From the IMG/VR virus record IMGVR_UViG_2837719392_000001: DNA of 64,000 nt. One strand, written 5' to 3'. The notes beneath the pieces are model-generated. The model searched no databases and was not told the DNA's origin. It saw only the letters and a list, made by a program, of their open reading frames with translations. This DNA comes from a virus (lineage: Duplodnaviria > Heunggongvirae > Uroviricota > Caudoviricetes). The position numbers were made by a program, and so were the translations under genes. Below are positions 19,456-34,390 of this stretch, in pieces. Within the stretch, counting starts at the first letter, position 1. Every line of letters starts with the position of its first letter.

Positions 19456-21078
19456 ATGGACAAATATTATAAATATGAAGACAAAATAGTCAATTCCTTT
19501 CTTTTTGTACCAAAGTTCTTGTTTTCTGACGAACGCTTTATGAAGTTAAGTGTCACAGAGAAACTGATTTATTCCTTATATCTACACAGATATACAATAA
19601 GCCAATATCATGACGAGATAGGACGATATATCATTTTTACTGATGATGATATTGTTGACAAACTTTACATCACTTCAAGGACTTGTATCAGAGCTAGAAA
19701 AAAACTCGAAGAAGCAAATCTCATCAAAATCCAAAAAACTCTAACATATAACAAAATCTATCTTGTTAATGTACTTAAAGCTTCTGAAAGTGAACATTTC
19801 TTTAACGAAAATGATTTGGAGGGATTAAAATTTTATCAGTTCCCAAGAGAATTCTTTGAAGATACTTATAAAAACTTAACACTGAATGCCAAGATGGTCT
19901 ATACAGTTTTTCTAGATACTTTAACTCTTAGTCAAATGAATTACTTTGTAGATTCTAACAAAAGGATTTATTTTCAGGAGAACATGGACATACAGATAAA
20001 AAAACTAAATCTAACAAAGCCAACAATACGTGAGGCAAGATACCTCTTGATGGTATGTGGATTGTTGTTAGAGTATAAAACATTCACTGAAGATATCAGA
20101 TATTATCCATTAAAGTTGTCTCACTTTACAGATAGAACTGCTGAATATAAAAAATGTAAAACAGCAAAAGAGAAGAAAGAATTTATAGAGATGACAACAA
20201 AACAAGACAAAGATGAGTTAATACTGAATCCATTAAAAATAGGTGTAAAACTTAAGGACTATAGAAAAGACGCAGGACTTACACAGACAAGACTAATCTC
20301 TTTATTAAGAGAAAAAAATGTAGATATTACTCAGCAGACTTATTCTTCATATGAAAATGGAAAGTTACATATCAAAAAAGAACTTTATGATATCTGTTTA
20401 GAGTGCATACAGGACGAAAAGAAAAAATTGTCTGAGTATACAAGACCAAAAGAAAATATTGTCATGAATGACAACTCTAAAGAAAAAAATTGTCATGACA
20501 TACAAGCTGAAAACAAAGAAATGTCATTAGTGGAAGAAAAATTATTCACGAATGAAAAGAAAGAATTGACATCTCCTGAAAGAAAAGAAAGTCATATAAA
20601 TTATACTTATACAAACAAAAAAGAAAATAATTATAATGAAAAATTAATAGAATTAATTAATTATATTAATAACATTATAAATACTTCACATATTCTTTTA
20701 GAAGAAAAAGATTACTTAACTGCATGTTTTGATAAGCTTCGTATATATAAACGATTCTATCTCAATACTTCACAAGAACTATTCACAACAGAAAGATTAT
20801 ATGAAGTCTTACAGAAGATGAATGAAAGAAATAAAGTTGAAGAGGTGTGTTTGAAGATTTTAGATAGAATTGAAACTAGCCATTATCAATTTAAGACACC
20901 TGATTCAGCCATCAATTGTTTTATTACTTTCTTGCTTAATGAACTAAAAGTAGAGGAAAAACAAGCTGATGATGTCCCAGAATGGTTTTCTAAAAAGAAA
21001 TTTCAGTTTGGTAGATTACCTGAACGTCATGTTGATGTATCTGATGATATAAAAAATTTAAAATGGTGGGAGGATTAA
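19456..21078 (+). CDS. RepA_N-family plasmid replication initiator. Duplicated RepA_N module plus central XRE-type HTH and long K/E/N-rich C-terminus.
   Basis: YKYEDKIVNSFLFVPKFLFSDERFMKLSVTEKLIYSLYLHRY matches the RepA_N signature. Second copy YQFPREFFEDTYKNLTLNAKMVYTVFLD. AAAGGAGG RBS. Confidence 0.7.
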   Translation: MDKYYKYEDKIVNSFLFVPKFLFSDERFMKLSVTEKLIYSLYLHRYTISQYHDEIGRYIIFTDDDIVDKLYITSRTCIRARKKLEEANLIKIQKTLTYNKIYLVNVLKASESEHFFNENDLEGLKFYQFPREFFEDTYKNLTLNAKMVYTVFLDTLTLSQMNYFVDSNKRIYFQENMDIQIKKLNLTKPTIREARYLLMVCGLLLEYKTFTEDIRYYPLKLSHFTDRTAEYKKCKTAKEKKEFIEMTTKQDKDELILNPLKIGVKLKDYRKDAGLTQTRLISLLREKNVDITQQTYSSYENGKLHIKKELYDICLECIQDEKKKLSEYTRPKENIVMNDNSKEKNCHDIQAENKEMSLVEEKLFTNEKKELTSPERKESHINYTYTNKKENNYNEKLIELINYINNIINTSHILLEEKDYLTACFDKLRIYKRFYLNTSQELFTTERLYEVLQKMNERNKVEEVCLKILDRIETSHYQFKTPDSAINCFITFLLNELKVEEKQADDVPEWFSKKKFQFGRLPERHVDVSDDIKNLKWWED

Positions 21079-21094
21079 ACCCACCTTTTCTTAT
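21063..21094 (+). terminator. rho-independent terminator after the initiator gene
   Basis: GGTGGGAGG-n-CCCACC + TTTTCTT. Confidence 0.5.
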
Positions 21095-21235
21095 ATTCCT
21101 AAATTTCGGATTTTCCTAAACTATCATAAATAATGGTATAATATAACTGTATTAATAAACGATTTCCAGAGATTACATTTTTGTAGTCTCTTTTTTCTTT
21201 TAGGAGGGAAAAGGAAAACGTGGAAAGGAGTAAAT

Positions 21236-21439
21236 ATGAAAACATTAAAGAAAATCAAATGGAATCATGTAGCATTAACTTTCATGACTCCAATGTTCAT
21301 TGGAGTAAACTTCTATTGTATCTGGAAATTAATGTTAGCTTTTTTAACAGCCAACGTAAACACTGGATATAATGCTTCTTGTTTTCTATTAATTGAAGCC
21401 ATTATTCTATTTCTTATTATTACAATTAGATTTAAATAA
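21236..21439 (+). CDS. small membrane protein
   Basis: 67 aa, two predicted TM helices. Confidence 0.35.
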   Translation: MKTLKKIKWNHVALTFMTPMFIGVNFYCIWKLMLAFLTANVNTGYNASCFLLIEAIILFLIITIRFK

Positions 21440-21466
21440 TGACCTATCTTGAAAGGAGGGATTGAG

Positions 21467-21727
21467 ATGATGGTCATAAAGAAAAACCGTATTTTTGTGG
21501 ATTTGAGTAGCATATCATACTCAATCCACTCACAAGAAAAAGGTAGAGAGAAAAGAATGTCTTATGTTGGAGACATTGCTTCCATGCATGTTCTCAAATC
21601 ATTTAGTGTTGATAGAGGTCATTTTGACGGACCGGAAATCCATCTAATTACAACAGATGGATATATCATCATTGTCAATGCTTGGACATTTAAGTTATGC
21701 ACAGTCTTGATAGCAAGACCAGGATAG
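21467..21727 (+). CDS. hypothetical protein
   Basis: AGGAGGGA RBS then ATGATG. Confidence 0.35.
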   Translation: MMVIKKNRIFVDLSSISYSIHSQEKGREKRMSYVGDIASMHVLKSFSVDRGHFDGPEIHLITTDGYIIIVNAWTFKLCTVLIARPG

Positions 21728-21846
21728 ATTGATAGATATTATAAAGCTATCAATCAAAAAGCACCAGTATGGTTGCTTGATAAGGCTTTTTACAATCAAA
21801 AAAGAAAATTAAACAAACTCTAGTCTGGCCAACTAGTTAAGAAAGG

Positions 21847-22080
21847 ATGAAAATTATGAGTTATTTAGGTGAAACAAAATTAATACGTGCAATAAGAAAG
21901 AGATTAGAAAGATATGGTTACATGGATGTAGAAGTCGCTTGTGCTGCAGAGCATCTTATAGACAATAGATGTGCAATAGAATCAATTATTGCTGATGTCT
22001 TAGATGAAGATATGACAGTTAATGAAGCTGTCAAAAAAGCAGTGAATGCGGAAGTTGAAAGAATGGAATGTATGGAATAG
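21847..22080 (+). CDS. hypothetical small protein
   Basis: 77 aa. Followed by hairpin GAGTGAT-TCTT-ATCACTC. Confidence 0.35.
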   Translation: MKIMSYLGETKLIRAIRKRLERYGYMDVEVACAAEHLIDNRCAIESIIADVLDEDMTVNEAVKKAVNAEVERMECME

Positions 22081-22132
22081 AGTGATTCTTATCACTCTAT
22101 TTTATCTTAAAATAAATAATATAATATAATTA

Positions 22133-22161
22133 TTGACACAATATCATTTATATGATATAAT
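22133..22161 (+). promoter_or_regulatory. consensus sigma-A promoter for the tRNA array: TTGACA - 17 nt - TGaTATAAT
   Basis: Exact -35 and -10 hexamers with 17-nt spacer and extended -10 TG. Confidence 0.7.
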
Positions 22162-22271
22162 GTGTGTACAGTGATGAAAGGAGAGAACATATTAAGACGA
22201 TTTGTGATAGACTTTTCAATATTTCTTAATTTGTCGCTTCTTGGTCACAAGAAGTTTTTATTTTGAAAAAA

Positions 22272-22354
22272 CGTCCTCGTGATGGAACTGGTAGACATGC
22301 ATGGCTTAGACCCATGTGCTTATGCGTAAGGGTTCGAATCTCTTCGAGGACACC
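22272..22354 (+). tRNA. tRNA-Leu (anticodon TAG), class II
   Basis: Acceptor GTCCTCG/CGAGGAC, anticodon stem CATGG/CCATG with loop CTTAGAC, T-loop TTCGAAT, CCA encoded. Confidence 0.75.
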
Positions 22355-22398
22355 AATATCACTCCAATTCTTGTAAAGAGTGAATATATGAAATTATA

Positions 22399-22471
22399 TG
22401 AACATCTAGCATAATGGAAATGCGTAGGGTTCAGCGCCCTTCATGATACTGGTTCAAGTCCAGTGGTGTTC
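22399..22471 (+). tRNA. tRNA-like gene with atypical anticodon arm (loop TTCAGCG, identity unresolved), no encoded CCA
   Basis: Acceptor GAACATC/GGTGTTC (7 bp incl. G-U), D-arm GCAT/ATGC, T-arm ACTGG-TTCAAGT-CCAGT. Anticodon stem has a mismatch and a 6-nt variable region. Confidence 0.4.
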
Positions 22472-22521
22472 AAATACCAGATTAGAAATAAGGCTAAAAC
22501 AGGGATAATCATATCCCTACA

Positions 22522-22661
22522 TGGTCCTTTAGCTCAGTAGGTAGAGCAGATGACTGTTATACATCACTACATCAAATAAAGACAGTTAAGTACGTGATGT
22601 ATGTCAACACTTTGTGTTGACAAATCATAGCTTGCAGGTTCGAATCCTGTAGGGACCACCA
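22522..22661 (+). tRNA. tRNA-Asn (GTT) gene interrupted by about 67-nt insertion at the 3' side of the anticodon loop (about 22559-22625)
   Basis: 5' half GGTCCTT-TA-GCTC-AGTAGGTA-GAGC-A-GATGA-CTGTTA. 3' half TCATA-GCTT-GCAGG-TTCGAAT-CCTGT-AGGGACC-A-CCA. Near-identical to the intact paralog at 23946. Insert has two perfect hairpins. Confidence 0.6.
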
Positions 22662-22688
22662 AATATACATTTTTTGTGACAAACAATA

Positions 22689-22766
22689 TTGGTGAGTAGC
22701 GTAGTTGGTTAGCGCAATCGGCTGTTAACCGATGGGTCGTGGGTTCAAGTCCCACCTCGCCAGCCA
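22689..22766 (+). tRNA. tRNA-Asn (GTT)
   Basis: U1-A72, loop CTGTTAA, T-arm GTGGG-TTCAAGT-CCCAC, discriminator G, CCA. Confidence 0.8.
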
Positions 22767-22767
22767 T

Positions 22768-22843
22768 GGCCTGTTCGTCTAAAGGTTAGGACACAACCCT
22801 TTCACGGTTGCAATGTTGAGTTCAAGTCTCACACAGGTCGCCA
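22768..22843 (+). tRNA. tRNA-Glu (TTC)
   Basis: Acceptor GGCCTGT/ACAGGTC, loop CTTTCAC, CCA. Confidence 0.8.
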
Positions 22844-22848
22844 AAAAT

Positions 22849-22925
22849 GGACATTTAGCTCAGGTGGTTAGAGCCATCGCCTCATAAGCGATTGGTCGGA
22901 GGTTCAAGTCCTTCAATGTCCACCA
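22849..22925 (+). tRNA. tRNA with CAT anticodon, elongator Met or Ile2 (lysidine) type
   Basis: Acceptor GGACATT/AATGTCC (G1-C72, so not initiator), loop CTCATAA, CCA. Confidence 0.75.
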
Positions 22926-22934
22926 TATAAAGAT

Positions 22935-23009
22935 GGTGAGGTTAGCTTAATGGTAAAGCGCTGGACTGTGGCCCCAGTTATACGAGTTCGATTCTCGTAC
23001 TTCACACCA
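22935..23009 (+). tRNA. tRNA-His (GTG) with encoded G-1
   Basis: G-1 then GTGAGGT acceptor, loop CTGTGGC, T-loop TTCGATT, CCA. Confidence 0.75.
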
Positions 23010-23014
23010 AAAAT

Positions 23015-23091
23015 TGGAAAGTAGCTCAGTTTGGTAGGGCGCACACTTTGGGAGCGTGAGGGCATGGGTTCAAATCCCATCTTTCCAACCA
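23015..23091 (+). tRNA. tRNA-Pro (TGG)
   Basis: Acceptor TGGAAAG/CTTTCCA, classic Pro loop TTTGGGA, one A-C mismatch in anticodon stem, CCA. Confidence 0.7.
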
Positions 23092-23105
23092 TATATTCCA
23101 CATAT

Positions 23106-23181
23106 GCCACCATAGCACAACTGGCAGTGCAACTGACTTGTAATCAGGAGGTTGGAGGTTCGACTCCTTCTGGTGGCACCA
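23106..23181 (+). tRNA. tRNA-Thr (TGT)
   Basis: Acceptor GCCACCA/TGGTGGC, loop CTTGTAA, CCA. Close to B. subtilis tRNA-Thr. Confidence 0.8.
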
Positions 23182-23186
23182 TATTT

Positions 23187-23271
23187 GGGGAAGTATTCCG
23201 TAACAGGTAGCGGGCTTGACTGTAAATCAGGTGTTTAAACTCAGAGTGTTCGAGTCACTCCTTCCCCACCA
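23187..23271 (+). tRNA. tRNA-Tyr (GTA), class II
   Basis: Acceptor GGGGAAG/CTTCCCC, loop CTGTAAA, long variable arm, CCA. Confidence 0.8.
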
Positions 23272-23283
23272 ATAAAATAATCT

Positions 23284-23372
23284 GCCCAAATGGTGAAATC
23301 AGGTAGACACACTGGACTTAAAATCCAGAGGAAGAAAATTCCGTGCCAGTTCGAGTCTGGCTTTGGGTACCA
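23284..23372 (+). tRNA. tRNA-Leu (TAA), class II
   Basis: Acceptor GCCCAAA/TTTGGGT, loop CTTAAAA, long variable arm, CCA. Confidence 0.8.
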
Positions 23373-23378
23373 TATTTT

Positions 23379-23453
23379 GCGGGTGTGATTCAACGGCTAG
23401 AATGTCAGCCTTCCAAGCTGACTACGTGGGTTCGATTCCCATCACCCGCTCCA
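23379..23453 (+). tRNA. tRNA-Gly (TCC)
   Basis: Acceptor GCGGGTG/CACCCGC, loop CTTCCAA, discriminator T, CCA. Confidence 0.8.
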
Positions 23454-23458
23454 TAAAT

Positions 23459-23548
23459 GGAAAGTAAATCCAAGAGGTTTTGGAACACGCCTGCTAAGCG
23501 TTGTGTGGGTATGACACCCATGAGTTTCGATTACTCTGCTTTCCGCCA
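23459..23548 (+). tRNA. tRNA-Ser (GCT), class II
   Basis: Acceptor GGAAAGT/GCTTTCC, loop CTGCTAA, long variable arm, discriminator G, CCA. Confidence 0.75.
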
Positions 23549-23551
23549 TAT

Positions 23552-23682
23552 ACGTCCTTAGCTCAGAGGAAAGAGCACGCGCCTTCTACATTGCAATCTG
23601 TAGATAGCAAGACATTGAAAATCAATCAAGTTGATTTTCATATAAGCGTGATGTCGAAGGTTCGACTCCTTCAGGGCGTACC
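23552..23682 (+). tRNA. tRNA-Arg (TCT) gene interrupted by a 55-nt insertion (about 23590-23644) between anticodon-loop position 38 and the 3' anticodon stem
   Basis: 5' exon ACGTCCT-TA-GCTC-AGAGGAAA-GAGC-A-CGCGC-CTTCTAC. 3' exon GCGTG-ATGTC-GAAGG-TTCGACT-CCTTC-AGGGCGT-A-CCA. All other arms canonical. Insert has hairpins TCTACA/TGTAGA (pairs with anticodon) and GAAAATCAA/TTGATTTTC. Confidence 0.65.
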
Positions 23683-23691
23683 AATTCAATA

Positions 23692-23768
23692 TCGCGGGGT
23701 AGAGCAGTTTGGTAGCTCGTCGGGCTCATTCCCCGAAGGTCGCAAGTTCAAATCTTGCCCCTGCAACC
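23692..23768 (+). tRNA. initiator tRNA-fMet (CAT)
   Basis: C1 x A72 mismatch (CGCGGGG...CCCTGCA-A-CCA). Near-identical body to E. coli tRNA-fMet, but anticodon loop reads CTCATTC (T37 instead of A, unusual). Confidence 0.7.
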
Positions 23769-23771
23769 AAA

Positions 23772-23848
23772 TGGTCTGGTAGTTCAGTTGGTTAGAACGC
23801 CGCCCTGTCACGGCGGAGGTCGCGGGTTCGAGCCCCGTCCAGACCGCC
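23772..23848 (+). tRNA. tRNA-Asp (GTC)
   Basis: Acceptor GGTCTGG/CCAGACC, stem CCGCC/GGCGG, loop CTGTCAC, discriminator G, CCA. Confidence 0.8.
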
Positions 23849-23853
23849 ATAAA

Positions 23854-23941
23854 CGCTTGCGTGTGATAATTGGTAGTCGCGCGGTCTTGAAAACCGTTGA
23901 CGGGAAACCGTTTGAGAGTTCGAGTCTCTCCGCAAGCGCCA
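23854..23941 (+). tRNA. tRNA-Ser (TGA), class II
   Basis: Acceptor GCTTGCG/CGCAAGC, loop CTTGAAA, long variable arm, CCA. Confidence 0.8.
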
Positions 23942-23945
23942 ATAA

Positions 23946-24021
23946 GGTTCCTTAGCTCAGTAGGTAGAGCGGATGACTGTTAATCATTAGGCCGCAGGTT
24001 CAAGTCCTGCAGGGACCGCCA
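23946..24021 (+). tRNA. tRNA-Asn (GTT), intact paralog of the interrupted gene at 22522
   Basis: Acceptor GGTTCCT/AGGGACC, stem GATGA/TCATT, loop CTGTTAA, CCA. Confidence 0.8.
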
Positions 24022-24022
24022 C

Positions 24023-24097
24023 GGCCCGTTCGACAAGTGGTTAAGTCACTACCCTTTCACGGTAGTATCGTGGGTTCAAATCCCGCACGGGTCACCA
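24023..24097 (+). tRNA. tRNA-Glu (TTC), second copy
   Basis: Acceptor GGCCCGT/ACGGGTC, loop CTTTCAC, CCA. Confidence 0.8.
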
Positions 24098-24100
24098 TAT

Positions 24101-24176
24101 GGACATTTAGCTCAGGTGGTAGAGAGGATGATTATTAAAAATCATCAAGTCGGAGGTTCAAATCCTCCAATGTCCA
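24101..24176 (+). tRNA. tRNA-like gene. Paralog of the CAT tRNA at 22849 but with an enlarged anticodon loop (GATGA-TTATTAAAAA-TCATC) and no encoded CCA. Possible pseudogene or unconventional decoder.
   Basis: Acceptor GGACATT/AATGTCC, T-arm GGAGG-TTCAAAT-CCTCC. 10 nt between the 5-bp anticodon stem halves. D-stem has one mismatch. Confidence 0.4.
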
Positions 24177-24186
24177 CTTCTTTCGT

Positions 24187-24262
24187 GGTTTCGTAGCTCA
24201 ATAGGTAGAGCGCTTGGCTGAAGACCAAGGCAGTATTGGTTCAATTCCAGTCGAAACCACCA
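24187..24262 (+). tRNA. tRNA-Phe (GAA)
   Basis: Acceptor GGTTTCG/CGAAACC, stem CTTGG/CCAAG, loop CTGAAGA, CCA. Confidence 0.8.
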
Positions 24263-24267
24263 TAAAT

Positions 24268-24346
24268 GGGGAATGGGAATGCTAGGAGTGTTCACCTGCC
24301 TTGCAAGCAGGAATGCAGATGGGTTCAAATCCCATATTCTCCACCA
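24268..24346 (+). tRNA. tRNA-Ala (TGC)
   Basis: G3-U70 identity pair, stem CCTGC/GCAGG, loop CTTGCAA, slightly long variable region, CCA. Confidence 0.7.
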
Positions 24347-24353
24347 AAAATCT

Positions 24354-24429
24354 AGGAGCGTAGCACAAAGGTGAATGCACACGACCGATAATCGTGCGAC
24401 TGCAAGTTCGAGTCTTGCCGTTCCTACCA
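24354..24429 (+). tRNA. tRNA-Ile (GAT) with C at position 33
   Basis: Acceptor AGGAGCG/CGTTCCT, stem CACGA/TCGTG, loop CCGATAA, CCA. Confidence 0.65.
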
Positions 24430-24432
24430 TAT

Positions 24433-24504
24433 CATCTGTAGCTTATATGGTAAAGCCACAGCCGTTAGTGCTGGGGAAGTTTGGTTCGACTCCAGACCAG
24501 ATGC
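24433..24504 (+). tRNA. tRNA-like gene with aberrant anticodon loop (CGTTAGT, G at position 33, possible TTA/TAG-type anticodon). No CCA.
   Basis: Acceptor CATCTGT/CCAGATG (6 bp), D-arm GCTT/AAGC, T-arm TTTGG-TTCGACT-CCAGA. Anticodon stem has only 4 bp. Confidence 0.35.
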
Positions 24505-24918
24505 CGGAGTTAAGGATTCTCTGAGAAAAATCTATATTGGAAAGGACCACGGTGAGGAATTGTACGCGAAAGCCATGCAACACTATTCCAAATCCGAAAG
24601 CATCTAGCTAATGCCTTGTTGGTCTGAGTTTCAAGTGCGAGGTTGGGGCAGCTTGAACAAGAAATCGTATGGGAATAAAAAATCTGACGACAGCCGGATT
24701 GACAATATATTTCCGTCCTGTATAGGTAAAAGTGGTTTGATGTGAACCGTCAAAAGAAAAAACATCGCTGTCAAATACCGAACAAAGGAGAAGAGTAGGT
24801 AAAAGACAAACCAGAATCCTTGAGGCTATTAACCTCTATTTGAATATCATTGAATAAGTTAATGGTCGACAGTCCATTGGGTAACTCCATAGGAGCACTG
24901 TTAGGTCTTTTCTTTTAT
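24505..24918 (+). ncRNA. candidate structured non-coding RNA (about 410 nt) between tRNA genes. Identity unknown.
   Basis: No plausible ORF on either strand. GC content clearly above flanking DNA. Many short complementary segments. Lies inside the tRNA transcription unit. Confidence 0.3.
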
Positions 24919-24995
24919 AGCAGAATGGCGAAAATGGTAGACGCACAGGACTTTGACTCCTGCATTTGGAGGTTCGAACCCTTCTTCTGCTGCCA
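24919..24995 (+). tRNA. tRNA-Gln (TTG)
   Basis: Acceptor AGCAGAA/TTCTGCT, stem CAGGA/TCCTG, loop CTTTGAC, discriminator G, CCA. Confidence 0.8.
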
Positions 24996-25017
24996 AAATA
25001 CTCAAATGGGGTGATAG

Positions 25018-25604
25018 ATTTGTCAACTTATTATGATTATTATGTTTTTATTAAAAAGGATAATGAGTTTAAGTATGCTGGATACTATGATATTTCTGGC
25101 AAACCCCTTCCCATATATTATCATACCCGTAGCTTCTCATACGGTTTCTTAGATTATGGACAATATGTCGATGACCCAGATAAATATGGTATCCATTTAC
25201 CAAACGAAGGTGATGAGGAAGATGAAGCCAGATTCGGTTACGTTTTCCAATTACCAGATATAGAAGCCATTCCAGACAGAAGCCATAAAGAAGCCTATAT
25301 ATATAAAACACTGAAAAGAGATATGGAAATTAATCATTTCGAATATGACATAGAAGAATATTTGGAAAATGATGAAGAATCTGTCGATGGACATTCACTT
25401 GTTATTTGCAAGAGTGAATTTGATAGACTATCCATAGAAGAACAAAAGAAATACTTTTATTATAAGTGGATTGATTATGAAGATATGTCCTACCATAGAA
25501 ATATTCTATGCACCATCATCAATAACTGGATAAATATAAGACAATTCAAAGAATTTAAAGATATAGATAAAAAGGACATATATGTCATTGCCTTTGGAGG
25601 ATAG
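25018..25604 (+). CDS. hypothetical acidic protein (D/E/Y-rich)
   Basis: ORF 24966..25604, trimmed so it does not overlap tRNA-Gln. Probable TTG/GTG start after a GGGGTGA RBS. Start uncertain. Confidence 0.35.
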
Positions 25605-25617
25605 GGAGGTGATGTAA

Positions 25618-26340
25618 GTGCAATGTAAAATTTATAGACGCACTTGGTCGTTGAAAAGAAAGTATCAACAAGAAGCTTTATTTTTTGACATTGATTCCTT
25701 CTTTCTTCCATATTATAAAAGATGCCATTTAAAAGCGTACAATCGTCCCCAATTTTGGTGGGCAACAGAATGGAATCTTATCTGTGATGAATTCAATCCT
25801 GAAGAATATAAAGATATTGAGTGGTTTCGAAAGAATGTTGCGGGACGCTTTGTGTCTCCTAAAGCGCTTAAATATATTCCATTTGCCAAATCAGATGATG
25901 ATTTCCCTGTACATGAAATAGATGAAATAGAAGTGGTACAATATAAGGTTGTTGATGAATATGGATATCCTATAAGTATGGATGTCTATATTAGTGATTA
26001 TATTGAAGAAAATATCAAAAGATACAAGAACTCATATAGTTTAAACAATCATCATTGTTATCCATCTCTACGCTACTACTGGCGACATCCTCAAACGACA
26101 AATGAAAAAAGACAACAGTTATCTAAAGAAGAAAAAAGATATTATCAAGAAAATGGATGGCATATGAAAGAGCGTTCTAAAAGAAATGCAAGAAATCTGC
26201 CAGATTTATTCGATGATAAATTCATTCATGTTGACAAATGCTGGAAATCTCAGACTCGTCAGCCTCGACAATATTTGAGAAACAAAAGAGCCAAAAGAAA
26301 AAGAATTCATGGAGAGGAATACAGGAATTTTATGGGGTGA
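25618..26340 (+). CDS. hypothetical basic protein
   Basis: GTG start after GGAGGTGA RBS. 240 aa, K/R/Y/W-rich. Confidence 0.4.
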   Translation: MQCKIYRRTWSLKRKYQQEALFFDIDSFFLPYYKRCHLKAYNRPQFWWATEWNLICDEFNPEEYKDIEWFRKNVAGRFVSPKALKYIPFAKSDDDFPVHEIDEIEVVQYKVVDEYGYPISMDVYISDYIEENIKRYKNSYSLNNHHCYPSLRYYWRHPQTTNEKRQQLSKEEKRYYQENGWHMKERSKRNARNLPDLFDDKFIHVDKCWKSQTRQPRQYLRNKRAKRKRIHGEEYRNFMG

Positions 26341-26349
26341 TAAGTAAAC

Positions 26350-26643
26350 TTGTCGTACACTCAAAAACGTCATACAAAAAGCCATATTCGACATGAATTA
26401 TATACTCATATAAAAAGAAAAGAAAAAATATTAAAGAATGTTTACGATGCAGGCTATGGATACTGTAAAAACAATGAAAAACTTGGCTCTTATTATGGAT
26501 ACACGAAAGGACAACCGCATCGTCTTTCAAAAGAAAAGATTCATTGCTCTTGTCCAATGTGTAGAGAAAAGACGAGAGAAAGAGGCTGGAAACACAGTGA
26601 TTTAGTTAATATGATGAAAGGAATTGAAGATGAGAGAGAATAG
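26350..26643 (+). CDS. small basic Cys-containing protein, paralog of 28623..28880
   Basis: MSYTQKRHTK... with ...IHCSCPMCREKT. Shares the MSYxxKRH N-terminus and K-x-HKSCP motif with the ORF at 28623. Confidence 0.45.
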   Translation: MSYTQKRHTKSHIRHELYTHIKRKEKILKNVYDAGYGYCKNNEKLGSYYGYTKGQPHRLSKEKIHCSCPMCREKTRERGWKHSDLVNMMKGIEDERE

Positions 26644-26808
26644 CCAATGTGAATGATGGATAATTCTAGAAAAAATCCGTCAAGACTCTACTCCTATTGA
26701 GGATGGGAAAAACTCAAGCTGAAAGATGCACCAATAACCAAGTATAAGAGGAAGGCTATCAATAGAATGTCATGCTACAGACAGAGGATGTTCATTTGTA
26801 ATAAATAA

Positions 26809-26883
26809 CCGTCTGTAGTCTAATGGATAGGACACGGAGCTACGGACTCCGGGGTGGTGGTTCGATTCCATTCAGGCGGGCCA
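26809..26883 (+). tRNA. tRNA-Arg (ACG)
   Basis: Acceptor CCGTCTG/CAGGCGG, stem CGGAG/CTCCG, loop CTACGGA, discriminator G, CCA. Confidence 0.8.
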
Positions 26884-26896
26884 GTGAGGTAGAAAG

Positions 26897-27508
26897 ATGA
26901 TTAGAGAATTTGTTTATCAAAGGCTTAACTTTCTGATAAATAATGTACAGGTAGAACATTCATCTTTTCTTAATCAATATGCAAAAGATTTTATAAAAGG
27001 AATACAAGAGAAATGTGATGTTAACATGTCGCATGTGTTTATCGAGAATTTTCCTATAATTGTAGCCATACATGATATAGGAAAGAAACATATTCCAGAT
27101 TATATTTTAGAAAAAAAAACTCAGTTGACGGATGATGAATATGAATGTGTACAACGTCATTGCATTTTAGGATATGAAGACTTGCAAGAAGCTTTCAACA
27201 ACATACCTCTGAATGAAGAAGAAAAGGAGTTGATTAAATTATGCAAGGAATCATGTTTATATCATCACGAAAGACTTGATGGGAGCGGATATCCTTATGG
27301 TTATAAACAAATCCCTCTTATCGCTCAGATGGTAGGAATTCTTGATAGTTTTGATGCTATGACTGTAAACAGATGCTATAAGAAAGCCATGAGCAAAGAA
27401 GAAGCTATCAAAAATCTTATTCAATCAGACAAATATAATGAGGAATTTCTTTATGTATTATCGGAGGTGATAGAAGATGAAAATGAAACTAGAAATTCAG
27501 ACAAATGA
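26897..27508 (+). CDS. HD-GYP/HD-domain phosphohydrolase
   Basis: HDIGK...HHERLDGSGYPYGY motif. 203 aa. Confidence 0.65.
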   Translation: MIREFVYQRLNFLINNVQVEHSSFLNQYAKDFIKGIQEKCDVNMSHVFIENFPIIVAIHDIGKKHIPDYILEKKTQLTDDEYECVQRHCILGYEDLQEAFNNIPLNEEEKELIKLCKESCLYHHERLDGSGYPYGYKQIPLIAQMVGILDSFDAMTVNRCYKKAMSKEEAIKNLIQSDKYNEEFLYVLSEVIEDENETRNSDK

Positions 27509-27683
27509 ATTGAATGTAACTTATGAAGAATTAGTCAATCATGTTAAAGACTCTTTAAAAATGAAGAATGTCCCTTTAACAAAAGTGAAAGATGTAAAAG
27601 CATATTATGTTCCTAACACAAAAGTTTTGTATTACACAGCCATGTATAATGGTGAAGAAATCAAAGGAGAAAAATACTTGTAG
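27477..27683 (+). CDS. hypothetical small protein
   Basis: 68-aa ORF overlapping the HD gene's 3' end. Confidence 0.3.
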   Translation: MKMKLEIQTNELNVTYEELVNHVKDSLKMKNVPLTKVKDVKAYYVPNTKVLYYTAMYNGEEIKGEKYL

Positions 27684-28129
27684 TTTTATACTTACAGTTT
27701 TCTCTTTATGCCAGCATTGTGATGAAACCTCCTCGTGGTTGCTGGTGGGTCGCGCTAATATCATCACAAGAAACAGACATATGGCTGAAAATCCTTTCAA
27801 CGGGATAAGGCACACTTGCTTCATGGTGGGTGGAATTCCCATTATAGAAACTCGATTGAGATATAACATAAAGTGGTTCCAAGATGAACAATGCCGTTTG
27901 TAAATTGGCTGTGCGGACAAGGCTTTCCTATCCGGGTAACAAGGAAAGGGAAATCCTTCTGGTGATGCAAATGTCGAGGCACAGGCTCCATGGTAGAAAA
28001 ATCCAGAGAAGAAAAACATATGGTGATATATTCTGTAGTTGATGCCATGGTTGGAGGTCACAGAGTCCTTCTTTTATGCAATGAAAGCAAACGAGGAGCA
28101 GCTTGTTGAGGTATGTACGTCTGTTTTAT
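27684..28129 (+). ncRNA. candidate structured non-coding RNA (about 440 nt) upstream of tRNA-Gln(CTG). Identity unknown.
   Basis: Only Cys/His-rich nonsense ORFs on both strands. GC-rich relative to flanks. Adjacent to tRNA. Confidence 0.3.
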
Positions 28130-28204
28130 ATCGGGATAGCATAATGGTAATGCGCATGGCTCTGAACCATGTCAGTGGAGGTTCGAATCCTTCTCCCGAT
28201 GCCA
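28130..28204 (+). tRNA. tRNA-Gln (CTG)
   Basis: Acceptor ATCGGGA/TCCCGAT, stem CATGG/CCATG, loop CTCTGAA, discriminator G, CCA. Confidence 0.8.
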
Positions 28205-28282
28205 AAAAAATTTCAAAATTAGCAATTCATGATAAAATGATAGTGGTAATCCTAATATCAGGAGCCACTATAATAGAAGATG

Positions 28283-28446
28283 GTAGCAGGGAACTATCAT
28301 CTTCACTATTACATTAAAAAAAAGGAGAAAGATGATAGAAAACCACTATCATCTTAACTACTCTATTATAAAAGAGATGATAGAAGGTCACTATCATCTT
28401 CACTATACTATGACATTATTGATGATAGAAAACCAGTATCATCTTC
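28283..28446. repeat. tandem hairpin repeats: three 45-bp units (28331, 28376, 28421) each containing GATGATAGAAAACCACTATCATCTT (stem GATGATAG/CTATCATC), plus a degenerate copy at about 28283
   Basis: Direct inspection shows a 45-nt period. Repeat about 25 nt, inter-repeat 20 nt. Confidence 0.6.
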
Positions 28447-28450
28447 AAAT

Positions 28451-28525
28451 ATCTCCATAGTTTAGTTGGTAGAACGTCGGTCTCCAAAACCGAAAGCAGA
28501 TGTTCGAGTCGTCTTGGAGGTGCCA
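28451..28525 (+). tRNA. tRNA-Trp (CCA)
   Basis: Acceptor ATCTCCA/TGGAGGT, stem TCGGT/ACCGA, loop CTCCAAA, discriminator G, CCA. Confidence 0.8.
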
Positions 28526-28526
28526 T

Positions 28527-28600
28527 GGTTTCTTGGCAGATTGGTTATGCGCAGGACTGCAACTCCTGTCAAGCTGGTTCGATTCCAGCAGAAATCTCCA
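28527..28600 (+). tRNA. tRNA-Cys (GCA)
   Basis: Acceptor GGTTTCT/AGAAATC, stem CAGGA/TCCTG, loop CTGCAAC, U73 discriminator (Cys identity), CCA. Confidence 0.8.
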
Positions 28601-28622
28601 TAAATTCTATTGAGGTGATTTT

Positions 28623-28880
28623 ATGTCTTATATGAGAAAAAGACACGACAGAGCTACAAAGCTTCGTAATGATTACAAGCACATGGCTCGCAAGAAAGAA
28701 ATCATCCGTAATACATATACGGATAGCTTTTGGAGGGATGAAAGAGCAAAGAAAAGACTCTTTACGCATCGTCTAAGCGATGCCAAGATACACAAAAGCT
28801 GTCCTTTGCTTCAAAGGAAAACAAATAAACTTGGATATTCATATTCAGACAAGAAAAGAATGAAGCCTATTGAAGCGTAA
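28623..28880 (+). CDS. small basic protein, paralog of 26350..26643
   Basis: MSYMRKRHDR...KIHKSCPLLQRKT. GAGGTGA RBS. Confidence 0.45.
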   Translation: MSYMRKRHDRATKLRNDYKHMARKKEIIRNTYTDSFWRDERAKKRLFTHRLSDAKIHKSCPLLQRKTNKLGYSYSDKKRMKPIEA

Positions 28881-29159
28881 AGAAAATTTCAAGCGTGAAG
28901 GGTATCTCTTGCAGATAGCATCCTTTTAAAAAGTAAGTCATATTATAAAGTATATAAGGATACTCTTTTACTCGCTATCAGATAGCTTGAAATTTGTGAA
29001 CGTACTTTTCTGTTGTGTGCTTTCCTTGGAAAGCATTTGATGTAGCATCCTTTTAATTCTAAAAAACGGAAGATTGGGGAAGCAGAAAAGCTTATTGCTA
29101 CAAGATAGTTCGCATGGGGCTTTATGCCCCTTTTCTTTGTATATAAGGAGGTATAAAAC

Positions 29160-33496: not shown

Positions 33497-34390
33497 ATGG
33501 CTAATAAAAGTTTTATTATTAATAAATTAAAAGAAAGATTAGCATGGATGAAGGAAAATACTGACTATAATGTGGCATTTATCTGTCTTCAGGGAAGCCA
33601 AAATTATGCTATGGATACAAAAAAAAGTGATGTTGACGTTAAGTGCTTTATAGTTCCTACGCTAAAGGACATGGTAAGCAATAAACAACCAGTCAGCAAA
33701 ATTTATACTATGGATGATAACAGCATCATTGATGTTAAAGATATAAGACTGTTACCTTCATTGCTACATAAATGCAATCCATCTTATCTTGAACTTTTGT
33801 ATTCTGATTATTTTTTAACAAACAATTCTTATCATCGCGTACCAACTTTAAGATTGAAAAAACAATTAAAGAAAGTTCGTCATGATATTTGCAATAGAGA
33901 TGTTATGCGTTTTATGAAATGCTTAAAAGGCAATGTACATGATAGACGTAAACATATGGAAAAAGAAACAGAAACGACTGCTAAGGACATTGAAATCTAT
34001 GGATATGTTCCTAAGGACTTTCATCATTTATTGAGATATACTTACATGATTGAAGAAATCAATAGACTTGGTAAAATCAAGTTTGAGTCATTAATGTCTC
34101 TTGATTTTTTAACAAGACCGAAATTCAATGAATTAAAGCTCTACAAGACAAATCCTGTTTCAAAAGTGGAAGCCATGAGATTAGCAGATATGTATGTCAA
34201 TAAAGCGGATAGAATTGTAGAAGAATTTGAAGCAAACTATAGTGGCAATATTAATGATGAAATTGATGAAAAAGTGAAACATTATGTCAATGAGTATGTA
34301 GAGTTCTGTATTGAACGTGATGTGATTACAGAATTCGTTGACAAGGTTCAACAAAAGAAATTAAAAGAAGTAGAAAGAGAAAGGAGCTAA
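33497..34390 (+). CDS. pol-beta-superfamily nucleotidyltransferase (GS-x10-DVDV motif). CD-NTase- or AbiEii-like.
   Basis: CLQGSQNYAMDTKKSDVDVKCF is the GS...[DE]h[DE]h NTase signature. Third acidic motif IIDVKDI. GAAGGAGG RBS. Confidence 0.5.
   Translation: MANKSFIINKLKERLAWMKENTDYNVAFICLQGSQNYAMDTKKSDVDVKCFIVPTLKDMVSNKQPVSKIYTMDDNSIIDVKDIRLLPSLLHKCNPSYLELLYSDYFLTNNSYHRVPTLRLKKQLKKVRHDICNRDVMRFMKCLKGNVHDRRKHMEKETETTAKDIEIYGYVPKDFHHLLRYTYMIEEINRLGKIKFESLMSLDFLTRPKFNELKLYKTNPVSKVEAMRLADMYVNKADRIVEEFEANYSGNINDEIDEKVKHYVNEYVEFCIERDVITEFVDKVQQKKLKEVERERS

What the first reader, a model, noticed from the sequence alone, without database searches (positions are those of the whole stretch)
22522..22661. 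Second interrupted tRNA: tRNA-Asn(GUU) copy with a 67-nt two-hairpin insertion and an intact paralog nearby
The 5' half (acceptor GGTCCTT, D-arm, GATGA-CUGUUA) and the 3' half (TCATA, T-arm GCAGG-TTCGAAT-CCTGT, acceptor AGGGACC-A-CCA) closely match the intact tRNA-Asn at 23946-24021. They are separated by an insert at the 3' side of the anticodon loop. The insert has ACTGT/ACAGT pairing with the anticodon region and perfect hairpins TACATCAC/GTGATGTA and GTCAACAC/GTGTTGAC. The two inserts (here and in tRNA-Arg) share architecture but not sequence. That argues for a class of functional intron-like elements rather than one transposed repeat. A small hairpin (GGGATA-ATCA-TATCCC) sits immediately 5' of the gene.
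Basis: seen in the sequence. Interest (0 to 1): 0.8.

Follow-up and report, generated by a model that had tools for sequence, protein, structure and literature searches.

The report
Hairpin insert splitting a tRNA gene
A transfer-RNA gene on a large plasmid- or phage-like element from gut or rumen bacteria is split in its anticodon loop by a 64-base hairpin-rich insert that looks like an intron but matches no known intron type, and whether it is ever spliced out is untested.

Summary
Window 22523-22661 is a complete tRNA-Asn(GUU)-type gene (Rfam tRNA 51.5 bits). A 64-nt insert (22560-22623; not 67 nt) splits it at anticodon-loop position 37/38 (or 36/37). The insert has two perfect 8-bp hairpins. 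Removing it gives a canonical 75-nt tRNA. The same interrupted gene occurs in two independent assemblies of 95-97% relatives.

The sister case, tRNA-Arg(UCU) at 23552-23683 with a 56-nt insert, is a clean presence/absence polymorphism. One near-identical genome has the same exons joined exactly. The interrupted copies differ by a compensatory T-stem pair.

Both inserts are single-copy and unrelated in sequence, except for a shared 5' UACAU and a UACA/UGUA first helix. They are not group I introns, not bulge-helix-bulge introns and not known ribozymes. They show no inverted-repeat ends and no consistent target duplication. No splicing enzyme was recognised in the 64 kb.

Best reading (about 0.4): a young, intron-like intervening sequence of a new bacterial kind, removed by proteins. 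Main rival (about 0.35): an unspliced, inactivated gene copy. No RNA data were available to decide.

In passing, a different, conserved and covarying family of about 45-nt inserts turned up in many phage tRNA genes.

The parts
22133..22161 (+). Promoter-like site upstream of the tRNA array: TTGACA, 17 nt, TATAAT, preceded by TG
   Evidence: 12 of 12 consensus matches. It is the only perfect site in 21800-25000. The inference is that the interrupted genes are co-transcribed with the rest of the array.
22502..22517 (+). Spacer hairpin GGGATA-ATCA-TATCCC just 5' of the gene
   Evidence: Read from the sequence. It is also conserved in L091/L092, where the downstream gene is an uninterrupted tRNA-Val, and in L218. 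It is therefore not tied to the insert.
22523..22559 (+). 5' exon of the interrupted tRNA-Asn(GUU): acceptor strand, D arm, anticodon-stem 5' strand, loop nt 32-37
   Evidence: Rfam tRNA 51.5 bits; ARAGORN intron mode; exon/insert split.
22560..22623 (+). 64-nt intervening sequence. Hairpin I is 22560-67 with 22594-601 and has a 26-nt loop. Hairpin II is 22603-10 with 22614-21. An AA tail follows. The insert starts with TACAT.
   Evidence: Boundaries come from comparison with the intact paralog and from the canonical tRNA left after deletion. Fold. L004 and L096 differ at only 2 of 64 positions; one of these is G-C to G-U in the closing pair of hairpin II.
22624..22661 (+). 3' exon: A38, anticodon-stem 3' strand, 4-nt variable loop, T arm, acceptor strand, A73, encoded CCA
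22690..22766 (+). Intact tRNA-Asn(GUU) paralog
   Evidence: ARAGORN; Rfam 68 bits.
23946..24021 (+). Intact tRNA-Asn(GUU) paralog, the closest relative of the interrupted exons
   Evidence: ARAGORN; Rfam 73.7 bits; alignment.
23552..23683 (+). Sister case: tRNA-Arg(UCU) with a 56-nt insert at 23589-23644 (boundary ambiguous over TA: 35/36, 36/37 or 37/38)
   Evidence: Rfam 48.8 bits; ARAGORN intron mode. The insert is present in L004 and absent in L096, L008 and L091, with an exact junction. It is the only UCU tRNA in the array.

Best explanation
**What it is.** 22523-22661 is a genuine tRNA-Asn(GUU)-type gene. It carries a discrete, recently acquired 64-nt intervening sequence at the canonical intron position of the anticodon loop (after nt 37, or 36). 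It is one of two such intervening sequences in a roughly 29-gene tRNA array. The array sits on a low-GC plasmid- or phage-like element (RepA_N, ParAB, DnaE) of gut or rumen Firmicutes.

**Proposed mechanism.**
1. The gene is transcribed as part of the array from the consensus promoter at 22133-22161.
2. The insert folds on its own into two hairpins and leaves the cloverleaf arms intact.
3. The first helix starts at the very first insert base (UACA/UGUA), so the 5' junction is buried in a helix.
4. The 3' junction lies in a short A-rich single strand after hairpin II.
5. A protein endonuclease and an RNA ligase, from the host or from the unseen part of the element, remove the insert and rejoin the halves. 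This is not self-splicing.

On this reading it is a new, non-group-I, non-bulge-helix-bulge kind of bacterial tRNA intron.

**Shown:** the gene, the boundaries, the fold, the conservation, and the intron-like presence/absence of the sister insert.

**Inferred:** transcription, excision and ligation.
For: - **Same site twice.** Two different tRNAs in one array are interrupted at the same loop position by unrelated sequences of the same architecture. A random second insertion would land on an overlapping position in only a few percent of cases.
- **Clean excision product.** Removing the insert restores canonical tRNAs.
- **Intron-like polymorphism.** The Arg insert is an exact presence/absence difference between near-identical genomes. 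L004 has it and L096 lacks it, with identical exons.
- **Compensatory change.** The two insert-bearing Arg alleles differ by a compensatory T-stem pair, G49-C65 against A49-U65. The exons carry no other difference and the two flanking tRNA genes are identical. The insert differs only by the hairpin-loop inversion.
- **Structure-preserving changes in the Asn copy.** All three stem substitutions between the window and L004/L096 keep pairing: D stem G-C to G-U, T stem G-U to A-U, hairpin II G-C to G-U.
- **Persistence.** The interrupted Asn copy is kept in all three sampled genomes of the clade.
- **Codon demand.** The interrupted Arg gene is the only UCU tRNA, and AGA is 292 of 413 Arg codons in the window's ORFs.
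- **Shared start.** Both inserts can be written to begin with UACAU (P about 0.011 by simulation).
- **Precedent in phages.** Small structured inserts in the anticodon arm of otherwise perfect tRNA genes are common in tailed phages, with several per array. Such interrupted genes are therefore tolerated and maintained elsewhere.
Against: - **No RNA evidence.** No transcript data of any kind were available.
- **No known splicing signature.** The insert is far too small for group I and does not end in G. The bulge-helix-bulge central helix scores 0-2 of 4 pairs. No Rfam ribozyme or intron family matches.
- **No enzymes found.** No tRNA endonuclease, RtcB or other RNA ligase was recognised in the 64 kb. 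The only hit of that kind is an RlaP-type nucleotidyltransferase at 33497-34390.
- **Too young for covariation.** The inserts are confined to a 95-100% clade, so no covariation test of the insert is possible.
- **Lost pairing.** The anticodon-insert pairing is not conserved.
- **Weak Asn copy.** It has A73 instead of the G73 of the intact copies. Its variable loop is 4 nt, and 3 nt in relatives. Two intact paralogs exist.
- **Decay in related arrays.** Related arrays contain plainly decayed tRNA genes: L008 Arg has a 4-nt T-arm deletion and L091 Ser(GCU) is truncated.
Confidence: 0.4

Rival explanations
1. Inactivated gene copy. A short hairpin-rich piece of DNA was inserted into the part of the gene that encodes the anticodon loop. 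Possible routes are filler DNA at a break, local duplication or template switching, or a site-specific nuclease that targets tRNA genes. The insert is never removed from the RNA. The copy is a young pseudogene, tolerated because intact paralogs or host tRNAs cover the codons.
For: - The Asn copy is redundant. It has A73 instead of G73 and a shortened variable loop, 4 nt here and 3 nt in L004 and L096.
- The inserts are young and clade-restricted, and the Arg insert is polymorphic.
- No splicing signature and no splicing enzymes were found.
- The arrays of relatives hold other broken tRNA genes.
- The Asn insert contains local repeats of exon-like sequence: TACATCA twice, and GACAGTTAA against the mature GACTGTTAA. 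The loop of the Arg hairpin is inverted between the window and L004. Both point to DNA-level palindrome dynamics.
- The element carries HNH and GIY-YIG endonuclease ORFs.
- Part of a plasmid tRNA array is known to be unexpressed in Anabaena (PMC8421152).
Against: - Two independent accidents at the same loop position with the same architecture are unlikely without a targeting mechanism.
- The compensatory T-stem change between insert-bearing Arg alleles, and the pairing-preserving substitutions in the Asn copy, fit continued selection on tRNA structure.
- The interrupted Arg gene is the only tRNA for the dominant Arg codon.
- The exactness of the presence/absence junction is not expected from random deletion.
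Confidence: 0.35
2. The unspliced RNA is itself the product. It would be a tRNA-like RNA whose enlarged anticodon arm serves another purpose. One possibility is a decoy or sponge for a host anticodon nuclease or a sequence-specific RNA toxin. UACAU, the pentad that starts both inserts, is from memory the recognition site of Firmicutes MazF. Another possibility is a handle for an RNA-binding protein, by analogy with Y-like RNAs.
For: - Both inserts begin with UACAU (P about 0.011).
- All five plus-strand TACAT pentads of the array (22273-24505) lie in or next to the two interrupted genes.
- The cloverleaf arms are kept.
- In other phages, tRNA genes with a conserved insert sit next to a DUF2828-type 'RNA-binding protein' in 17 of 34 loci.
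Against: - The MazF link rests on memory and was noticed after the fact.
- The UACAU pentads lie partly inside helices.
- No MazF-like or DUF2828 protein was found in the window.
- The window inserts do not match the model of the conserved phage insert family.
- A decoy role would not explain why removing the insert leaves a perfect tRNA.
Confidence: 0.1
3. A miniature transposable element, either a non-autonomous IS derivative or a single-strand hairpin element of the IS200/IS605 or REP type, that targets the hairpin loop of the tRNA gene.
For: - Exact presence/absence of the Arg insert, flanked by TA...TA.
- Perfect palindromes in both inserts.
- A shared 5' TACAT.
Against: - Each insert is single-copy in the window and absent from the loci held (L001-L095) and from the phage collection.
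- There are no terminal inverted repeats.
- The Asn insert has no TA duplication.
- The two inserts are unrelated in sequence.
- No transposase domain was seen among the ORFs scanned. ORFs below about 95 aa were not scanned systematically.
Confidence: 0.07

Closest known systems
Protein-spliced tRNA introns of Archaea and Eukarya (canonical position 37/38)
   Same: - Short (tens of nt) and without an ORF.
- Compatible with position 37/38 in the anticodon loop.
- Part of the insert can pair with anticodon-loop bases.
- The exons form a complete cloverleaf.
   Different: - The host context is bacterial: a sigma-70 consensus promoter, RepA_N, DnaE, encoded CCA.
- There is no bulge-helix-bulge motif; the central helix scores 0-2 of 4 pairs.
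- The 5' junction lies inside a helix, not in a bulge.
- No splicing endonuclease or RtcB was seen in the window.
Bacterial group I introns in tRNA anticodon loops (tRNA-Leu UAA, fMet, Ile CAU, Arg CCU; Patescibacteria Asn/Asp, PMC13011429)
   Same: - Interrupt the anticodon loop of bacterial tRNA genes.
- Patchy presence or absence among relatives.
- The same element probably carries endonuclease-bearing introns in its DnaE gene.
   Different: - 56-64 nt against roughly 200 nt or more.
- No Rfam group I match.
- No P1 U-G pair at the 5' junction.
- The last insert base is A or U, never G.
Conserved ~45-nt 'hairpin + ACAGCAA' inserts in phage tRNA genes
   Same: - A small structured insert in the anticodon arm of an otherwise perfect tRNA gene inside a mobile-element tRNA array.
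- Removing it restores a canonical tRNA.
   Different: - Family A sits after position 28/29.
- It has a conserved sequence motif and a covarying hairpin.
- It occurs several times per array.
- It is linked to a DUF2828 protein.
- The window inserts do not match its covariance model even at E <= 10.
Intervening sequences of bacterial 23S rRNA (excised by RNase III without religation)
   Same: - Short hairpin-forming inserts in a stable RNA gene.
- Sporadic among close relatives.
- Removed, if at all, by host nucleases.
   Different: Fragmented rRNA still works. A tRNA cut open in its anticodon loop cannot decode, so ligation would be needed. The helices here are only 8-10 bp.
Miniature inverted-repeat elements of the IS630/mariner type (TA target duplication)
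   Same: The Arg insert is flanked by TA on both sides, and its presence/absence is exact.
   Different: No terminal inverted repeats, single copy, and no TA duplication at the Asn insert.

Membership tests
Group I intron | Conserved catalytic core (P3-P9), normally at least about 200 nt, recognised by Rfam RF00028 | tested here: not met
   The insert is 64 nt. No Rfam family other than tRNA matches 22523-22661, even at E <= 1, and the whole-window gathering scan gives the same result.
Group I intron | U at exon position -1 paired with G in P1, and a terminal G at the intron's 3' end | tested here: not met
   For every allowed boundary the last insert base is A (Asn), or A or U (Arg). U36 pairs with A, not G, in the Arg helix.
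Archaeal/eukaryal protein-spliced tRNA intron | Position 37/38 of the anticodon loop (canonical) | tested here: met
   The 37/38 boundary is compatible for both Asn and Arg. The alternatives 36/37 (both) and 35/36 (Arg) cannot be excluded.
Archaeal/eukaryal protein-spliced tRNA intron | Bulge-helix-bulge motif: two 3-nt bulges separated by a 4-bp helix, carrying both splice sites | tested here: not met
   Central-helix pairing is 1/4 or 2/4 (Asn) and 0/4 or 1/4 (Arg) across all boundary options. The 5' junction lies inside an 8-10 bp helix.
Archaeal/eukaryal protein-spliced tRNA intron | Splicing endonuclease (EndA/Sen) and an RNA ligase available in the cell | tested here: inconclusive
   No such Pfam, PHROG or NCBIfam domain was found in the ORFs scanned: all ORFs >= 150 aa and about a dozen smaller ones, mainly between 13 and 43 kb. 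The window is only 64 kb of an element of at least 167 kb, and the host genome is unknown.
Small self-cleaving ribozymes (hammerhead, twister, pistol, hatchet and others) | Match to the family covariance model | tested here: not met
   No hit in 20000-30000 at E <= 1.
Miniature transposable element (MITE or IS derivative) | Multiple copies, terminal inverted repeats, target-site duplication | tested here: not met
   There are no other copies in the window, in the loci held (L001-L095) or in the phage records. There are no inverted-repeat ends. A TA repeat flanks only the Arg insert.
Phage tRNA insert family A (hairpin + ACAGCAA) | Match to covariance model R1; insert after tRNA position 28/29 | tested here: not met
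   R1 gives no hit at 22560-22623 or 23589-23644 at E <= 10, but finds 37 hits in 100 IMG/VR loci. The position here is 37/38.
Functional tRNA-Asn | Canonical cloverleaf after excision; GUU anticodon; G73 discriminator (a bacterial Asn identity element, from memory) | tested here: inconclusive
   The cloverleaf and anticodon are met. The discriminator is A73, whereas all five intact Asn genes compared have G73. The variable loop is only 4 nt.
Spliced intron of any kind | Mature RNA with the exons joined | not testable with these tools
   No transcript data were available.

The most novel reading that the evidence does not exclude
Bacterial mobile elements carry a previously unrecognised class of short tRNA introns that lack both a group I core and a bulge-helix-bulge motif. 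They would be inserted at the canonical 37/38 site, excised by a sequence- or structure-specific endoribonuclease, and resealed by an RNA ligase. One candidate nuclease would cut at the UACAU that begins both inserts. If so, maturation of particular element-encoded tRNAs would depend on an RNA-cleavage and repair pathway, possibly coupling tRNA supply to the host's stress or defence state.
Probability: 0.3. Interest if true: 0.85.

Novelty: new variant of a known kind. Interest (0 to 1): 0.6.

Why it matters
The only tRNA introns known in Bacteria are self-splicing group I introns. Protein-dependent splicing of short anticodon-loop introns is treated as a hallmark of Archaea and Eukarya. If these 56-64-nt inserts are excised, that would be a third route to tRNA splicing, operating in bacterial plasmids or phages. 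It would also give a role to the RNA repair enzymes (RtcB, RlaP-type systems) that are common in bacteria and phages without known substrates.

If the inserts are not excised, they record how tRNA arrays on mobile elements decay, and they show that a site-specific process hits the anticodon-loop DNA.

There is also a practical point. Standard tRNA finders skip such genes; default ARAGORN missed both. tRNA complements of phages and plasmids may therefore be under-counted.

Tried and rejected
- **Close relatives in annotated collections.** None exist at the DNA level in INPHARED. Protein matches in phages and plasmids are only about 30% identical.
- **IMG/VR pattern for an interrupted Asn gene.** It returned only adjacent-tRNA false positives.
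- **Related-locus searches.** The HD protein and RepA searches of IMG/VR found nothing. The 653-aa protein found one distant locus without an array. Eighty GTDB loci with 31-46% homologs of the 653-aa protein lack the tRNA array; their single ARAGORN 'intron' call (L028) is a terminator, not a tRNA.
- **Alternative genetic code.** This was checked because of the UUA suppressor tRNA. ORF statistics give no clear sign of recoding.
- **Promoter inside the inserts.** None passes the scan. The TTGACA at the 3' end of the Asn insert lacks a usable -10.
- **Group I, bulge-helix-bulge, ribozyme, MITE and family A membership.** All were tested and not met.
- **Link between the 653-aa protein and the DUF2828 protein of other phages.** None (hhalign probability 0.2%). 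No PDB relative by sequence.
- **Structure prediction of the two array-embedded proteins.** 25618-26340 gave pLDDT 49.9 and 24966-25604 gave pLDDT 40.8. Both were too poor for fold search.
- **MazF homolog in the window.** A tblastn with a remembered B. subtilis sequence found none. This is weak evidence.
- **Intermediate relatives (L218-L220).** Their contigs end at or before the interrupted slot.
- **Literature.** Seven full-text searches found no description of short non-group-I inserts in bacterial or phage tRNA genes.

Full report

Yes. Default ARAGORN finds 26 tRNA genes between 22273 and 28600 and skips 22523-22661. In intron mode it calls tRNA-Asn(gtt) there and tRNA-Arg(tct) at 23552-23683.

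Independently, the Rfam tRNA covariance model matches 22523-22658 over its full length (51.5 bits, E 5.9e-09). It also matches 23552-23680 (48.8 bits). No other Rfam family hits either region at E <= 1, and none does in the whole-window gathering scan.

Reading the sequence gives these parts:
- The 5' exon is 22523-22559.
- The insert is 22560-22623. It is 64 nt, not 67, and it can be shifted by one base.
- The 3' exon with encoded CCA is 22624-22661.

The precursor folds to -44 kcal/mol (z = -3.8 against dinucleotide shuffles) and keeps the acceptor, D and T arms. The Arg precursor behaves the same way (-42.2 kcal/mol, z = -3.9). Deleting the inserts gives sequences that ARAGORN calls as ordinary 75-nt Asn(gtt) and 76-nt Arg(tct) genes.

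**2. What carries it?**

The window is about 33% GC. Its recognisable genes are listed below:
- RepA_N (19456-21078) and ParA/ParB (6771-8736).
- RecD2, RecJ, topoisomerase III and FtsH.
- A MoxR-type ATPase with a weakly VWA-like partner.
- An RlaP-type nucleotidyltransferase (33497-34390).
- A DnaE gene broken into three pieces by HNH and GIY-YIG ORFs.

No phage structural genes lie in these 64 kb. A 12-of-12 sigma-70 consensus promoter sits at 22133-22161, just upstream of the array.

No close relative exists in annotated phage or plasmid collections. Distant homologs of the 653-aa protein are widespread in rumen and gut Firmicutes MAGs. Arrays of more distant relatives contain ROOL RNA. 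The host is therefore bacterial, probably a Clostridia-type gut or rumen organism. The element is plasmid-like or a phage-plasmid.

**3. Comparative evidence**

Relatives were fetched through the 653-aa protein and RepA.

*The Asn copy.*
- The interrupted Asn gene is present in the window, in L004 (97% protein identity; ENA, 167-kb contig) and in L096 (95% RepA identity; OBYM01000094.1).
- Against those two, the window copy differs at six positions.
- The three differences that fall in stems all keep pairing: D stem G-C to G-U, T stem G-U to A-U, and the hairpin II closing pair G-C to G-U.
- One difference destroys the ACAGT that could pair with the anticodon. One shortens the variable loop. 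One changes the already mismatched position 43.
- At the same slot, defined by conserved flanks, the 68% relatives L091 and L092 carry an uninterrupted tRNA-Val(UAC) with a similar acceptor and T arm.
- L218 carries the 5' half of an Asn gene of the 23946 type.
- The upstream spacer hairpin is present in all of them, so it is unrelated to the insert.

*The Arg copy.*
- The interrupted Arg gene is more informative. The 56-nt insert is present in the window and in L004.
- It is absent in L096, whose gene equals the L004 exons joined exactly (CCTTC|TAAGCG). It is also absent in L008 and L091.
- The ancestral state is therefore uninterrupted. The insert is a derived, exactly bounded unit that is still polymorphic.
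- The two insert-bearing alleles differ by an inversion of the 5-nt loop of hairpin II (TCAAG against CTTGA).
- They also differ by a compensatory pair in the T stem: G49-C65 in the window against A49-U65 elsewhere.
- The exons carry no other difference, and the neighbouring Ser and Met genes are identical.

Overall divergence of the two interrupted genes (6 and 5 differences) lies inside the range seen for the other tRNAs of the array, 0-13.

**4. What the inserts are not**

- **Not dispersed repeats.** Short-word BLAST finds no second copy in the window or in the loci held at the time (L001-L095). Nothing similar exists in 50,697 phage records.
- **Not a typical small transposon.** There are no inverted-repeat ends. 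Only the Arg insert is flanked by a 2-nt TA repeat.
- **Not group I.** The size is wrong, there is no Rfam match, and there is no terminal G.
- **Not bulge-helix-bulge.** The 4-bp central helix that defines the motif scores 0-2 of 4 for every boundary option. The 5' junction is buried in an 8-10 bp helix.
- **No known small ribozyme** matches.
- **No splicing enzymes were recognised.** Pfam scans of all ORFs >= 150 aa and about a dozen smaller ones, plus PHROG and NCBIfam scans of about a dozen ORFs in and around the array, found no tRNA endonuclease, RtcB, Rnl or kinase-phosphatase domain. The window is less than 40% of the element, and the host is unknown.
- **The array-embedded proteins stay unassigned.** Structure predictions of the two were too poor to use.

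**5. What the two inserts share**

- Both are compatible with position 37/38.
- Both can be written to start with UACAU, using the 37/38 boundary for Asn and 35/36 for Arg. A simulation that allows for the boundary ambiguity gives P about 0.011 for a shared first pentamer.
- In both, the first four bases UACA pair with a downstream UGUA to open hairpin I.
- Both have a perfect 8-9 bp hairpin II near the 3' end, followed by a short A-rich or AU tail before A38.
- All five plus-strand TACAT pentads in 22273-24505 lie within or beside the two interrupted genes.

From memory, UACAU is the recognition pentad of MazF toxins of Bacillus, Staphylococcus and Clostridioides. These toxins leave ends that RtcB can join. 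This is a lead, not a test. It was noticed after the fact, it explains only one of the two cuts, and no MazF-like gene is in the window.

**6. Broader context found in passing**

An IMG/VR scan looked for tRNA genes with 65-95 nt between the D arm and the T arm. An exhaustive 'delete one segment' test followed.
- 67 distinct genes with intact acceptor stems (6 or 7 of 7 pairs) were tested.
- 39 of them become canonical tRNAs after deletion.
- In 28 of those 39, the insert lies after position 27, 28 or 29, in the 5' strand of the anticodon stem (mostly 28/29).

Many of these inserts share a short hairpin followed by ACAGCAA.
- The hairpin covaries. All 5 pairs show double changes; the covariation score is 0.688 against 0.242 in shuffles, with 0 of 500 shuffles reaching it.
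- A covariance model of the motif finds 37 copies in 100 loci, often several per array.
- These are tailed phages, with terminase and portal genes.
- In 17 of 34 loci a DUF2828/DUF7788 protein (PHROG 850, 'RNA-binding protein') lies near the array.

The model does not match the window inserts, so they are not members of that family. The family still shows that tRNA genes with small structured inserts are maintained in phage arrays. That raises the prior for the inserts here being handled in some way. No paper describing either phenomenon was found in seven full-text searches.

**7. Weighing the explanations**

For an intron-like, excised element:
- The same site is hit in two tRNAs.
- The exons are perfect.
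- Presence or absence is exact.
- The compensatory and pairing-preserving changes point to continued selection on tRNA structure.
- The Asn copy is retained in all three genomes of the clade.
- The only UCU tRNA is interrupted, while AGA is 71% of Arg codons.

Against it:
- There is no signature of any known splicing mechanism, no enzymes and no RNA data.
- The inserts are too young for covariation analysis.
- The Asn copy is redundant and has A73 where the intact Asn genes have G73. Its variable loop is marginal.
- Related arrays contain decayed genes.

I put the excised-intron reading at about 0.4. An unspliced, inactivated copy is at about 0.35. An unspliced RNA with another role is at about 0.1. 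A miniature transposon is at about 0.07.

**8. Verdict**

The finding is real and is more than chance. The claim of function is unproven.

The feature is filed as a new variant of a known kind, a tRNA intervening sequence. It fails the tests for every established intron family. It becomes important only if excision is demonstrated.

Noticed in passing
L109 6304-6877; L107 10129-10605; L114 329-445; about 30 further IMG/VR loci among L098-L217: A conserved insert of about 43-45 nt sits after tRNA position 28/29 in otherwise perfect phage tRNA genes, with several copies per array. It is a short covarying hairpin followed by ACAGCAA. It matches no Rfam family. Covariance model R1 finds 37 copies in 100 loci.
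   Followed up: partly
L107 8440-9906; L203 859-2469 (minus strand); 17 of 34 family-A loci: A DUF2828 + DUF7788 protein (PHROG 850, 'RNA-binding protein'; Ro/TROVE-like from memory) is the most recurrent gene next to arrays that hold family-A interrupted tRNAs. This suggests a protein partner for these RNAs.
   Followed up: partly
L100, L120, L123, L128, L169/L209, L214, L162, L180, L204 (IMG/VR): A second group of tRNA inserts, 51-69 nt long, ends in (A)GAGTTACTTC or GTTAY. Some also contain ACAGTAAT. They occur after position 28 in some tRNAs and inside the anticodon loop in others, which suggests a mobile element family.
   Followed up: no
window 23589-23644 against L004 4756-4811: The 5-nt loop of the perfect 9-bp hairpin in the Arg insert is inverted between two otherwise identical copies (TCAAG against CTTGA). 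This is a flip of the palindrome centre at the DNA level.
   Followed up: partly
window 22523-22661 against L091 13051-13126 and L218 11490-11544: The same array slot, with conserved flanks, holds an interrupted Asn(GUU) gene here, an intact Val(UAC) in L091/L092, and an Asn gene of the 23946 type in L218. All have similar acceptor and T arms. The tRNA identity at this slot has been remodelled.
   Followed up: partly
window 58065-63994 (minus strand): The DNA polymerase III alpha (DnaE) gene is in three pieces: 62636-63994, 60590-61393 and 58065-59522. The pieces are separated by an HNH/NUMOD ORF (61547-62275) and a GIY-YIG ORF (59622-60425). These are probably two endonuclease-carrying introns, although Rfam reports no group I or II match.
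   Followed up: partly
L094 13847-14421; L095 14188-14761: Full-length ROOL RNA (about 303 bits) is embedded in the tRNA arrays of the 47% RepA relatives. There is none in the window.
   Followed up: no
window 24433-24505: A tRNA with anticodon UUA (an ochre-suppressor type) is conserved in L004, L096 and L008. ORF statistics give no clear sign of stop-codon recoding in the window.
   Followed up: partly
window 23459-23550: A class II tRNA-Ser(GCU)-like gene with an unusual D arm is missed by both ARAGORN and Rfam. It is identical in L004, L096 and L008. In L091 its 3' end is replaced by about 230 nt of unrelated sequence.
   Followed up: no
window 22273-28600: The array of about 29 genes has no tRNA-Lys and no tRNA-Val, although AAA/AAG and GTN codons are abundant. 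It includes an odd Phe(AAA) gene at 24101-24177.
   Followed up: no
L094 12904-12998; L095 12950-13044: A tRNA with anticodon UAU is 92-95 nt long because of a long extra arm in the variable region. That is unusual for an Ile-type tRNA.
   Followed up: no
L008 127-195 and 783-1228: The uninterrupted Arg(UCU) gene of L008 has a 4-nt deletion in its T arm and is probably dead. A 445-nt stretch with no annotation lies inside the same array.
   Followed up: no
L001 9011-9175; L002 12205-12370: In an unrelated IMG/VR phage, the 3' end of a tRNA (GGGTTCGAATCCCTCTCTGGGAGCTT) is repeated about 150 nt downstream of two tRNA genes. This looks like an integration-site duplication.
   Followed up: no
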